From the NCBI RefSeq assembly GCF_050920415.1, contig NZ_CP169309.1: DNA of 64,000 nucleotides. One strand, given 5' to 3'. Below, in pieces: positions 49,954 through 52,630 of this stretch. Numbering within the stretch: position 1 is the stretch's first letter; every line of letters starts with the position of its first letter. A program made the translations under genes and the position numbers. This stretch comes from Escherichia coli. Its GTDB lineage: Bacteria > Pseudomonadota > Gammaproteobacteria > Enterobacterales > Enterobacteriaceae. The notes beneath the pieces were generated by a model. It searched no databases. It worked only from the letters and a program-made list of their open reading frames with translations, and was not told the origin of the DNA.

Positions 49954-50526
49954 TTAGCAAATGCCAAACGCTCGAATTGAAGCCAAGTCATCCAGATTAT
50001 TCAGTTGTTCCTTCATCTCCCGCTGGCGTTCGTGGATTTTAAATCCCTCCGCCACCATGGCCACCATCATGGCATCGTTCAGCGCAATAAGTTTCTCCCT
50101 GGTCAGTACGACGTTGTTATTATCCGCATCAGTCCAGAAAAAACCCTCCGGAAGCAGTCCGGCCTGTGCTGCTGCAACCACGGGGGCAAGGCGTGACTGC
50201 GAGGTTTTTCCGCCATCAAAACGACGGCCATCAAACGTGAAAATAAACTCAACGTTTTCCTGACTGTCGCGCCATGCCTCAATTTCCCGCCTTTTGGCAT
50301 CCTTTGCCGCTGCAATAAGTTCCGGCGTGACGGTGAACGGGGCGATTTCGCCCCATTTCCCGCTTTGCAGCTCCTGCCAGATGTGCTGGCCTGTCGGGGC
50401 CATATCATCCTGTATGGCAGTATACAGGGCGAACTCCGTTTCACCTTCAAATAACACCTCGCAGTCAACCGCACCATTTTCAAGATAATGTGCGTTTCTG
50501 ATACCTTTCACCGCTCTGATTTTCAT
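49954..50526 (-). CDS. Putative tail fiber assembly/chaperone-like protein (positional call)
   Basis: ORF 49954..50541 directly downstream of and overlapping the tail fiber gene; not recognisably lambda Tfa. Confidence 0.45.
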   Translation of the reverse strand: MKIRAVKGIRNAHYLENGAVDCEVLFEGETEFALYTAIQDDMAPTGQHIWQELQSGKWGEIAPFTVTPELIAAAKDAKRREIEAWRDSQENVEFIFTFDGRRFDGGKTSQSRLAPVVAAAQAGLLPEGFFWTDADNNNVVLTREKLIALNDAMMVAMVAEGFKIHERQREMKEQLNNLDDLASIRAFGIC

Positions 50527-52630
50527 GCCTGATTTCCTCATTACTCAATGCGTACAAAAAGACCGATAAAGCCACGCTGAGTACCATAATTGTTACCCAG
50601 GCCCAAAGCGCCGTGTAACGACCGGGGAAGTTGTATTCACCGGCACCGCCAATCACAACCTGCGGTGAGGATGCGTATGTCCCTGTATCACTAACCTGTG
50701 CACTCATGGCCAGAGGACCAAGACGGGAACCCGGCACAGTATCACCGAGTCCCAGAGAAGCATTTTCACCAAAACTTTCTCCCTGATATACCGCCATAAT
50801 CGGCACACCGACGGCCGGGTATTGGTAATATGAGAACGGACCATTACCGGCGGTTGAGGACATCAGATATGCCAGGGAGTTGCCGTCATACACAATAAGG
50901 CTTGATGTTGCATTCCAGCTGTTACCACTGTAGCGATAACGCATACAATGTATGCTGTGCTCATCCTCGTAATACTGGTTGTAGTACAGCAGCGTTTTGA
51001 ATTTACGCGCCGTGTCTGATTCGTCGTTATCAGACGGTGACCACATCACATCAATGATACCGTTAAATTTCGTGGTCCCCTTCAGCAGCGTGGAGGAGTC
51101 CGCAATACTGACCGCATAACGCCCCGGGGTGACTGTCTGCAGCCATATAACGAAATCAGCCTGTCCGTTAAATGACAGAGCTTCGGCGCTGGTGAATGCC
51201 TGTCCAAACCCATACATCCCGGACAGGGCCAGCCTGCCCGGTGTGCGGTCACGGATATCACTCTGGGGTTCCATCGTCGCAGCCGCGCTCAGCTCAAGCT
51301 CCGTGCGCATGGCTTCAGCCGTGTCATGCGCCAGTAATGCGCGGGCCTTCTCTGACAGCGGAGACAGTGAGGCATTCCCGTCTGTATTGAAGTACAGAAG
51401 ATTATCTGCCCGTTGCGTCAGTGCGCTGATTGCCGTTAAGACGTCATTAAGCGGTTGTTTGCCTGCCAGCGCGTTTGTGATTGTCGTCGCAAAGTTCGGG
51501 TCATTGCCCAGCGCCGCTGCCAGTTCGTTCAGGGTGTCCAGAACTTCCGGTGATGAGCCAACCAGCGCAGCAAGCAGTTTGCGCACAAACGCTGCGTTCG
51601 CTGCTTCCAGACCGGCGGCATCATCCGGTGGGGTTGGGGTGGTTGGGGTGCCGGTGAAGGCCGGGCTGTCCAGTGGCGCTTTTGTTTTCGTTTCGTCCAT
51701 GACGGCTTTGACAGCCTTTGGCGTGGCAGCCAGTTCCTCGCTGTCGTTGTCCGTATAACTACAGAGTTGCACCAGACCTTTTTCTGTCGTGCTGGCATTT
51801 GTTGCATTCAGGTCATCAACTATCTGCTGCGCCTCATCCCTGTACTGTTTCGCTTCCTGCGCATTGTCTGCACCTGCATCCTGGCTGGCTTTAGCCTGTC
51901 GGGCGTATTCGGCGGCACTGTTTTTGTGCCCCAGCGCAGCATTTGCCGACAGTTCTGAACTGGTCGCTGCTGATGATGCGGTATTATGATAAAGGCGGGC
52001 ACGTTCGGCGGCATCGACTGATTCGTCCCGCGCTGTGCCTGATGTCTGTGCGCTGTTTTCAGCCTCACCCGCAAAACGTTCCGCATCATCACGGGCCGTT
52101 GCGGTTGTCGTCACATCCTGTGCCGTCTGCTGTGCGTTTCCGGCTGCAGCTTCGGCGCTCTGCTGTGTCTGATTTTTTAGCTCTTCTGCCTCATCCTTAC
52201 TAACCGCCGCAGATGTTGCTGCATTGATTGCATCATCAGCAGCTGTTTCTGCTCTCTCCCTGTCACTGACCACCTGCTCAGACAAGCGAACAACGGTATT
52301 TACCATTTCCTCAAAACGCTTCATTACCTCAGGGCGTAAATCACCCTCCTTTGGTGCATCCAGAAAAGCATTCAGCGTATCCGGCTCATCTGTCGGTGCA
52401 ACATAAATTTCCCCCGCCTTTACAGGAGGATGCCCTGAGCGGGACAAAAATACATCATAAAATCCCGGCTCAGCATTAATAGTATACCCGCCATCACTTC
52501 CCGTAAGACAGGTTGCCACAATATTAACCACAACTGTCGGACTGGTTCTTCTGGCACGCAATTCAATCGCACAGTTTACGACAGGCTCACCCGCTCCGTC
52601 CTTCAGGACACCTGAAATCTTTACTGCCAT
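50480..52630 (-). CDS. stf: Side tail fiber protein (lambda Stf-like N-terminus; Ala/Glu-rich central region)
   Basis: MAVKISGVLKDGAGEPVVNCAIELRARRTSPTVVVN matches the lambda Stf N-terminus; ORF extends to 52636. Confidence 0.8.
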   Translation of the reverse strand: MAVKISGVLKDGAGEPVVNCAIELRARRTSPTVVVNIVATCLTGSDGGYTINAEPGFYDVFLSRSGHPPVKAGEIYVAPTDEPDTLNAFLDAPKEGDLRPEVMKRFEEMVNTVVRLSEQVVSDRERAETAADDAINAATSAAVSKDEAEELKNQTQQSAEAAAGNAQQTAQDVTTTATARDDAERFAGEAENSAQTSGTARDESVDAAERARLYHNTASSAATSSELSANAALGHKNSAAEYARQAKASQDAGADNAQEAKQYRDEAQQIVDDLNATNASTTEKGLVQLCSYTDNDSEELAATPKAVKAVMDETKTKAPLDSPAFTGTPTTPTPPDDAAGLEAANAAFVRKLLAALVGSSPEVLDTLNELAAALGNDPNFATTITNALAGKQPLNDVLTAISALTQRADNLLYFNTDGNASLSPLSEKARALLAHDTAEAMRTELELSAAATMEPQSDIRDRTPGRLALSGMYGFGQAFTSAEALSFNGQADFVIWLQTVTPGRYAVSIADSSTLLKGTTKFNGIIDVMWSPSDNDESDTARKFKTLLYYNQYYEDEHSIHCMRYRYSGNSWNATSSLIVYDGNSLAYLMSSTAGNGPFSYYQYPAVGVPIMAVYQGESFGENASLGLGDTVPGSRLGPLAMSAQVSDTGTYASSPQVVIGGAGEYNFPGRYTALWAWVTIMVLSVALSVFLYALSNEEIRHENQSGERYQKRTLS

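What the first reader, a model, noticed from the sequence alone, without database searches (positions are those of the whole stretch)
50480..52630. Side tail fiber with an unusual hydrophobic C-terminus overlapping the downstream gene
The N-terminus matches lambda Stf and the central region is Ala/Glu-rich low complexity. The last 45 residues (...YTALWAWVTIMVLSVALSVFLYALSNEEIRHENQ...) are hydrophobic and TM-like, and the ORF overlaps the downstream tfa-like ORF by about 60 nt. This pattern suggests a recombinational or mosaic 3' end, or a frameshifted receptor-binding domain.
Basis: seen in the sequence. Interest (0 to 1): 0.4.

Follow-up and report, generated by a model that had tools for sequence, protein, structure and literature searches.

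The report
Frameshifted prophage side tail fibre gene
The odd hydrophobic tail on this prophage tail-fibre protein comes from one missing base that shifts the reading frame 21 codons before the normal stop, so it is an ordinary broken gene or an assembly error, not a new protein domain.

Summary
A 716-codon stf ORF (- strand, 52630..50480) has a lambda-Stf N-terminus, an Ala/Glu-rich middle and a strongly hydrophobic last ~40 residues, and it overlaps the downstream ORF by 47-62 nt.

The cause is one missing base. The window lacks a C (- strand) between positions 50605 and 50604, context GCGCTTT[C]GGGCC. All 15 homologous loci I aligned carry that C. In all 20 complete E. coli genomes that hold this 3' module, the best-matching copy spans one base more than the window.

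Restoring the C gives a 696-aa protein identical to WP_065275655.1, seen on 18 contigs. It ends ...ALSGLGNNYGTQRGFIGLFVRIE*, 14 nt before the start of the DUF4376 chaperone gene. This ending (FPGRYxALSG...LFVRIE) is conserved down to 36%-identity homologs in E. coli and Salmonella. The frameshifted form is on record from a single contig.

There is no recombination junction, since the flanking DNA is identical to the closest relative. The hydrophobic tail is therefore out-of-frame read-through, not an evolved domain.

Whether the deletion is a real lambda-PaPa-like inactivation or an assembly error cannot be settled without reads; I put it at about even. Novelty and interest are low.

The parts
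50480..52630 (-). stf ORF as it stands in the window (716 codons plus TGA). Codons 1-675 are native and codons 676-716 are out of frame.
   Evidence: the product is identical to WP_432780800.1/XVM70678.1, on record from one 5.31-Mb contig
50604..50605 (-). Site of the 1-nt deletion. The native Ser-676 codon TCG has lost its C (a G on the + strand), in the context GCGCTTT[C]GGGCCTGG. A Dcm motif CCTGG lies 4 nt downstream.
   Evidence: alignments: all 15 homolog loci (L001-L005, L008-L017) carry the base; in all 20 complete genomes with this module the best match spans 222 bases against the query's 221
50606..52630 (-). Native part of Stf (residues 1-675): phage_tail_N domain 1-134, Ala/Glu-rich shaft, Phage_fiber_2 repeat 280-319, and most of a tip domain (about 460-675) with no Pfam or PDB assignment.
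50483..50605 (-). Out-of-frame tail of 41 codons (WAWVTIMVLSVALSVFLYALSNEEIRHENQSGERYQKRTLS). It reads through the native stop, the Shine-Dalgarno sequence and the first 15 codons of the downstream gene.
50541..50603 (-). Displaced native 3' end: 20 codons (GLGNNYGTQRGFIGLFVRIE) plus TAA (50543..50541), intact in the +1 frame.
   Evidence: conserved in 24 homologs down to 36% identity; predicted terminal beta-strand
49954..50526 (-). DUF4376 gene (190 aa), the probable tail-fibre chaperone. The Shine-Dalgarno GAGG sits at 50538..50535, and an alternative ATG at 50541 overlaps the native stf stop as TAATG.
   Evidence: phrog_1141, E=3e-82; PF14301; chaperone role of a DUF4376 protein shown for Alteromonas phage V22 gp27 (PMC7289586)
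52695..53294 (-). lom (Ail/Lom outer-membrane beta-barrel) gene, immediately upstream of stf as in lambda.
53362..57060 (-). gpJ central tail fibre / tail tip gene, intact at 1232 aa.

Best explanation
This is a standard lambda-type side tail fibre gene (stf) in a lambdoid prophage next to potB. In this sequence it has lost one nucleotide, the C of Ser-676 codon TCG, 21 codons before its natural stop. From that point the ribosome reads the +1 frame. It replaces the conserved ending SGLGNNYGTQRGFIGLFVRIE with 41 unrelated residues, passes the native TAA and the ribosome-binding site and start codon of the downstream DUF4376 chaperone gene, and stops 44 nt inside that gene. The 'TM-like' segment is simply what that frame encodes and is not an evolved domain. 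These points are shown: the deletion, its uniqueness, the identity of the repaired protein to a known intact allele, and conservation of the in-frame ending. The following is inferred. The lost segment includes invariant Ser-Gly and the terminal LFVRIE beta-strand of the tip domain. Fibre trimerisation with downstream chaperones starts at the C-terminal end. The product would therefore most likely fail to mature, giving a phage without side fibres that depends on gpJ alone, as in laboratory lambda PaPa. Translation running over the chaperone gene's start may also disturb its expression. I cannot tell from the sequence whether the deletion exists in the bacterium's DNA or only in the assembly, and I put it at roughly 50-55% real. 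The confidence given here is for the frameshift explanation of the unusual C-terminus.
For:: the window lacks one C that five homologs have, and there is no other internal indel except a different one in L001; ten more loci all have the C, including three at the same potB site; in all 20 complete genomes that hold this 3' module (85 places in total) the best match spans 222 bases against the query's 221, and none is 100% identical; the repaired ORF is 696 aa with stop TAA at 50543..50541, 14 nt before the ATG at 50526, and the first differing residue is 676; the repaired protein is exactly WP_065275655.1 (18 contigs), while the frameshifted 716-aa form is on one contig; in the closest genome the same gene, broken by a different 1-nt deletion, is already annotated 'frameshifted'; the repaired protein matches phrog_2636 end to end (1-696 vs 1-568/568). 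S231/G232 (= S676/G677) are invariant and L-F-V-R-I nearly invariant in 25 sequences down to 36% identity; the model puts beta-strands at 226-231 and 243-249 of the 251-aa tip fragment; no substitutions flank the deletion; literature on the lambda PaPa stf frameshift and on C-terminal, chaperone-assisted fibre trimerisation.
Against: Nothing contradicts the frameshift itself. The functional consequences are untested. A fibre missing only its last 21 residues might still partly fold. The AlphaFold model is a monomer of only moderate confidence (mean pLDDT 66), and no solved structure matches it.
Confidence: 0.95

Rival explanations
1. Assembly or polishing error: the bacterium's real stf is intact, and the missing C is a consensus mistake in a multi-copy prophage repeat. 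This rival concerns the origin of the deletion, not the frameshift reading.
For: The variant is on record from exactly one contig and from none of the 20 complete genomes with this module. The module is repeated, with a median of 4 places per genome, and repeats are where short-read polishing is least reliable (own knowledge). The near-identical sister assembly MFDS1022581 has three single-base deletions, all in prophage genes and none in 50 kb of chromosome. Several related assemblies are full of single-base indels in J and lom. A Dcm site (CCTGG) lies 4 nt from the lost base, and methylation motifs are known to perturb nanopore base-calling (own knowledge).
Against: The lost base is not in a homopolymer, unlike nearly all the indels seen in the other assemblies. 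The window shows no other indel in 64 kb, and all its other tail genes are intact, so the assembly looks clean. Assemblies with obvious homopolymer errors still have the C here, so the site is not a systematic error hotspot.
Confidence: 0.45
2. The hydrophobic C-terminus is an evolved functional domain, for example a membrane anchor or a novel receptor-binding tip.
For: The 19-residue hydropathy of 2.24 is in the range of transmembrane helices.
Against: No homolog has it. Homologs conserve the other frame down to 36% identity. It is produced by one missing base relative to otherwise identical DNA. It is translated partly from an intergenic ribosome-binding site and from another gene's coding sequence. 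Similar hydrophobic stretches occur in 3 of 11 other segments of the same shifted frame.
Confidence: 0.01
3. Mosaic or recombinant 3' end: a different tip module was joined on by recombination, as often happens in tail fibre genes.
For: Tail-fibre genes are generally mosaic. Only 20 of 5426 genomes carry this particular tip, while 4338 match other parts of the region.
Against: There is no junction at the site. The window and its closest relative are identical for about 25 kb on one side of the deletion and 3.8 kb on the other, apart from the relative's own 1-nt deletion in stf. The sequence downstream of the deletion is the normal 3' end read in another frame.
Confidence: 0.01
4. Programmed ribosomal frameshift or dual coding: the two frames are both used on purpose.
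For: The deletion creates the run CTTTGGGCC, and low-level spontaneous slippage cannot be excluded.
Against: Every other copy is a single uninterrupted 696-codon ORF. By inspection of the sequence, there is no X XXY YYZ heptamer in the zero frame. Restoring the frame by slippage would also replace the invariant Ser-676.
Confidence: 0.01

Closest known systems
Lambda PaPa stf frameshift (Hendrix and Duda 1992, as cited in PMC12617516)
   Same: Both involve a lambda-type stf gene with the same N-terminal domain, in the same place in the tail module (J - lom - stf - chaperone), disrupted by a frameshift relative to an intact wild allele. The expected phenotype is loss of non-essential side fibres, with infection still possible through gpJ.
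   Different: In lambda PaPa the frameshift lies mid-gene and splits stf into two ORFs (own knowledge). Here it is 21 codons from the end and lengthens the ORF by 20 codons, so automatic annotation did not flag it. The tip domain and chaperone (DUF4376) are unrelated to lambda's Stf tip and Tfa. The loss of fibres has not been shown here.
Intact allele WP_065275655.1 ('prophage tail fiber N-terminal domain-containing protein', 696 aa) in E. coli prophages at potB and near ompT
   Same: It is identical over residues 1-675 and identical throughout once the C is restored. It has the same neighbours: lom upstream and a DUF4376 gene 14 nt downstream.
   Different: The window copy lacks one base and so ends in 41 unrelated residues.
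Sister copy in E. coli MFDS1022581 (NZ_CP169399.1, locus ACE00D_RS14605), annotated 'frameshifted'
   Same: It is the same prophage at the same site, with DNA identical across the gene except for the indels.
   Different: Its missing base is elsewhere (the C4/G4 run at window 51126-51129), and it carries the C that the window lacks. The two deletions are therefore independent events or errors.
Alteromonas phage V22 gp26/gp27 fibre plus DUF4376 chaperone pair (PMC7289586, PMC10579305)
   Same: A receptor-binding fibre gene is followed directly by a gene of about 190-195 aa with a C-terminal DUF4376 domain. In V22 that protein is required for the fibre to become functional.
   Different: V22 is a myovirus of a marine host. 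No sequence similarity between the fibres was tested here, and the chaperone role of the E. coli DUF4376 protein is inferred, not shown.

Membership tests
Lambda-type side tail fibre (Stf) | N-terminal 'prophage tail fibre N-terminal' domain (PF08400) that docks the fibre on the tail tip | tested here: met
   PF08400 covers residues 1-134, E=1.2e-40. Residues 1-92 align to PDB 9e7m_Ta 'Tail fiber protein', E=4.4e-21.
Lambda-type side tail fibre (Stf) | Position in the tail module: downstream of J and lom, followed by a small assembly/chaperone gene | tested here: met
   The order is J (53362-57060), lom (52695-53294), stf, then the DUF4376 gene (49954-50526). The chaperone is DUF4376, not Caudo_TAP/Tfa.
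Lambda-type side tail fibre (Stf) | Uninterrupted ORF through the C-terminal tip domain | tested here: not met
   The frame is lost at codon 676 of 696, so the window copy is a frameshifted allele of a family member.
Lambda-type side tail fibre (Stf) | Assembles as a trimeric fibre that binds a host surface receptor | not testable with these tools
   This needs expression, electron microscopy or adsorption assays.
Frameshift pseudogene (lambda-PaPa-like stf inactivation) | Single-base indel relative to intact alleles, with otherwise collinear DNA | tested here: met
   One missing C, with identical flanking DNA.
Frameshift pseudogene (lambda-PaPa-like stf inactivation) | The indel is present in the organism's DNA, not only in the assembly | not testable with these tools
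   No reads are available. The variant is on record from one contig only.
Frameshift pseudogene (lambda-PaPa-like stf inactivation) | Loss of side fibres in virions | not testable with these tools
   This needs prophage induction and electron microscopy.
Transmembrane or membrane-anchored protein | Hydrophobic helix of about 20 residues | tested here: met
   KD 2.24 over ALWAWVTIMVLSVALSVFL.
Transmembrane or membrane-anchored protein | The hydrophobic segment is conserved in homologs | tested here: not met
   It is absent from all 24 aligned homologs and all 15 loci, and the alternative frame is the conserved one.
Programmed ribosomal frameshift | Two-frame arrangement and slippery site conserved across relatives | tested here: not met
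   Relatives have one continuous 2091-nt ORF.
Mosaic (recombinant) fibre tip | A breakpoint where similarity to relatives changes | tested here: not met
   The window is identical to the closest relative on both sides of the deletion.
Tfa / Caudo_TAP tail fibre assembly protein (downstream gene) | PF02413 domain | tested here: not met
   The downstream product is on record as PF14301 DUF4376 only and matches phrog_1141. It is 'tfa-like' in position and likely role, not in family.

The most novel reading that the evidence does not exclude
The two nearly identical genomes (the window's source and MFDS1022581) each carry a different single-base deletion in this one 2.1-kb gene, and these are the only two indels in 54 kb of shared sequence. 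If both are real, this would point to recurrent, possibly selected, inactivation of side tail fibres in resident lambdoid prophages of this lineage. It would be a natural counterpart of what happened to lambda in the laboratory.
Probability: 0.07. Interest if true: 0.3.

Novelty: already known. Interest (0 to 1): 0.07.

Why it matters
It matters little biologically. If the deletion is real, this prophage would probably make virions without side fibres, as laboratory lambda does. That could slow adsorption but need not abolish infectivity. The practical point concerns annotation. Because the frameshift lengthens the ORF instead of truncating it, the 716-aa product was accepted as a normal protein (WP_432780800.1). 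Its artefactual 'transmembrane' tail could mislead domain or localisation predictions.

Tried and rejected
1. Fold assignment of the tip domain. An AlphaFold2 model of the last 251 residues from a 25-sequence alignment reached only mean pLDDT 66. A Foldseek search of the PDB gave nothing significant, best E=0.07. Sequence searches of the PDB and Pfam also leave residues about 460-696 unassigned. The fold and the receptor remain unknown.

2. Finding the source contig by exact protein look-up. The 716-aa protein is in the cluster table but has no gene position on record, so I could not examine the other stf copies in the same genome.

3. Looking for a named isolated phage with this fibre and chaperone module. 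Only one weak 138-nt match turned up, in phage SerU-LTIIb stf2. The module is known only from prophages in the collections searched.

4. Rejected readings are the evolved membrane anchor, the mosaic junction and the programmed frameshift; the reasons are given under the rival explanations.

5. Hydrophobicity as evidence of function was also rejected. Other stretches of the same shifted frame are similarly hydrophobic.

Full report
**What is in the sequence.** On the - strand there is an ORF from 52636 (GTG) or 52630 (the ATG that homologs use) to the TGA at 50482..50480, giving 716 codons from the ATG. Residues 1-134 are the Pfam 'prophage tail fibre N-terminal' domain (PF08400, E=1.2e-40). 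Residues 1-92 align to the PDB chain 9e7m_Ta 'Tail fiber protein' (E=4.4e-21), whose sequence I recognise from my own knowledge as lambda Stf. Residues 101-290 are 23% Ala and 11% Glu, and a Phage_fiber_2 repeat lies at 280-319. The last ~40 residues contain ALWAWVTIMVLSVALSVFL, with a 19-residue Kyte-Doolittle mean of 2.24, against at most 1.22 elsewhere in the protein. The ORF runs 47 nt past the annotated ATG (50526) of the next gene, or 62 nt past that gene's longest possible start at 50541. Upstream lie lom (52695-53294) and an intact gpJ (53362-57060). Downstream lie a 190-aa DUF4376 gene and then potB. The one correction is that the downstream gene is a DUF4376 protein, not a lambda-Tfa (PF02413) homolog.

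**The cause.** Translating the three frames of the 3' end shows that the +1 frame reads ...GLGNNYGTQRGFIGLFVRIE and stops at a TAA (50543..50541) just before a GAGG Shine-Dalgarno sequence and the ATG of the downstream gene. A megablast against 5,426 complete E. coli genomes found 20 genomes with a near-full-length match. The closest (MFDS1022581, 99.9%) spans the same 2801 bases as the query, while H2-H12 span 2802. In the intact relatives the gene is 2091 nt (696 aa) and ends 14 nt before the DUF4376 gene. In MFDS1022581 it is annotated 'frameshifted'. A multiple alignment places the difference exactly: the window lacks one C between 50605 and 50604 (- strand GCGCTTT[C]GGGCC), which turns codon 676 from TCG into the start of TGG GCC TGG. 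MFDS1022581 has that C but lacks a different C in a C4/G4 run at window 51126-51129. Restoring the C yields a 696-aa protein that is residue-for-residue identical to WP_065275655.1.

**How unusual the deletion is.** All five loci from the first search and ten further loci that encode the intact protein carry the C. Three of those ten are at the same potB site and seven are in a prophage next to ompT. A 221-nt probe over the site matched 85 places in 20 genomes. In every genome the best match spans 222 bases, and none is 100% identical. In the 15-billion-protein collection the frameshifted 716-aa form is on one 5.31-Mb contig, while the intact form is on 18 contigs.

**Which frame is conserved.** A search with the last 251 residues of the repaired protein returned 81 cluster representatives from E. 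coli and Salmonella. I aligned 24 of them, spanning 95% to 36% identity. The ending FPGRYxALSG...(C/G)LFVRIE is the most conserved part of the tip. S231 and G232 (full-length S676 and G677, the first residues lost in the window) are invariant, and L-F-V-R-I is nearly invariant. The repaired protein matches PHROG 2636 from the first to the last profile position. An AlphaFold2 model of this fragment is only moderately confident (mean pLDDT 66; 70-85 in the core). It places beta-strands at 226-231 (RYTALS) and 243-249 (GLFVRIE). The frameshift thus begins at the end of one strand and removes the terminal one. No solved structure resembles the model.

**Readings ruled out.**
- Mosaic junction: the window and MFDS1022581 differ by 3 substitutions and 2 single-base gaps in 54,450 bases, and there are no substitutions between 24945 and 54450. 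The DNA on both sides of the deletion is the same lineage.
- Evolved membrane anchor: no homolog has it. It is encoded partly by an intergenic ribosome-binding site and by the first 15 codons of another gene. Comparable hydrophobic stretches (KD >= 1.6) occur in 3 of 11 other stop-free segments of the same shifted frame of stf.
- Programmed frameshift: relatives have one continuous ORF.

**Likely consequence (inferred).** Tail-fibre chaperones encoded just downstream of fibre genes assist trimerisation that begins at the fibre's C-terminal end (statement in PMC7289586). A DUF4376 protein (V22 gp27) has been shown to be required for its fibre to become functional. Replacing the conserved terminal 21 residues with 41 unrelated, largely hydrophobic ones should therefore block fibre maturation. 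In lambda, a frameshift in stf is what distinguishes laboratory lambda PaPa from Ur-lambda. Side fibres speed adsorption 10-30-fold but are not needed for plaque formation (PMC12617516). The other tail genes visible in the window are intact: the 859-aa tape measure, M, L, K, I, and the 1232-aa J. The expected phenotype is thus a fibre-less but otherwise possibly viable phage. Ribosomes reading across the chaperone gene's start could also alter its expression. None of this was tested.

**Real mutation or assembly error?** This cannot be decided here.
- For an error: the variant is a singleton. The module is repeated several times per genome. The sister assembly has three single-base deletions confined to prophage genes. 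Related assemblies show many single-base indels. A Dcm motif lies 4 nt away.
- For a real mutation: the lost base is not in a homopolymer, unlike nearly all the indels seen in the other assemblies. The window has no other indel in 64 kb. Assemblies that are clearly error-prone still have the C.
- I put it at about 50-55% real.

In either case the unusual C-terminus is explained.

**Verdict.** Interest is low. The main practical note is that this frameshift lengthens the ORF, so it escaped pseudogene flagging and now exists as a protein record with a spurious TM-like tail.

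Noticed in passing
window 51126-51129 and 50604-50605, compared with NZ_CP169399.1 (L001, L006, L007): The window and its near-twin genome MFDS1022581 differ by only two indels in 54,450 bases. Both lie in this one stf gene, one in each genome. If indels fell at random, the second would land in the same 2.1-kb gene about 4% of the time. The causes could be repeat-associated assembly error or recurrent real inactivation.
   Followed up: partly
window 50480-52630 (-): The frameshifted 716-aa product has an ordinary RefSeq protein accession (WP_432780800.1) and is not flagged as a pseudogene, whereas the sister copy with a mid-gene deletion is flagged 'frameshifted'. Frameshifts near the 3' end that lengthen an ORF escape detection.
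   Followed up: partly
homologs P0036, P0044, P0048-P0054 and others: Many database fragments of this tail-fibre tip domain are named 'shikimate transporter, partial'. This looks like a propagated misannotation, since they align throughout with the fibre tip.
   Followed up: no
window 50526-50543 (-): The native stf stop overlaps an in-frame alternative ATG of the downstream ORF as TAATG (50543..50539), a typical translational-coupling arrangement. Annotators instead use the ATG at 50526, which has a GAGG Shine-Dalgarno sequence. Cluster members of 190, 192 and 194 aa exist.
   Followed up: no
window 49720-49953; L009, L011-L016: The DUF4376 gene is the last prophage gene before potB, which ends at 49719. 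No potC is seen on that side, so the attachment site is probably at the potB/potC junction. The same stf-DUF4376 module also occurs in a second prophage next to ompT, where a 78-aa Caudo_TAP (Tfa-family) remnant follows it.
   Followed up: no
window 52647-52668 and 53324-53343 (-): Strong terminator-like hairpins with T-runs flank lom on the coding strand, one between J and lom and one between lom and stf. Transcription of stf would then need antiterminated late transcription, or the hairpins may insulate lom expression in the lysogen.
   Followed up: no
window about 54445-54450, compared with L007 4461-5689: MFDS1022581 has an IS2 inserted in gpJ and a frameshifted tape-measure gene. The window has an intact J (1232 aa) and an intact tape measure (859 aa). 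Beyond the IS2 site the two genomes diverge more, with 25 substitutions in 9.5 kb clustered in the tape-measure region. That suggests exchange between resident prophages.
   Followed up: no
stf residues about 460-696 (window 50541-51250): The tip domain has no Pfam family, no sequence relative in the PDB and no Foldseek match. No isolated phage in the INPHARED collection carries it. Its receptor is unknown.
   Followed up: partly
window 51129-51758 (+): A 209-aa antisense ORF lies within the Ala-rich part of stf. It is most likely a by-product of the GC-rich, Ala-codon-rich composition and not a gene.
   Followed up: no
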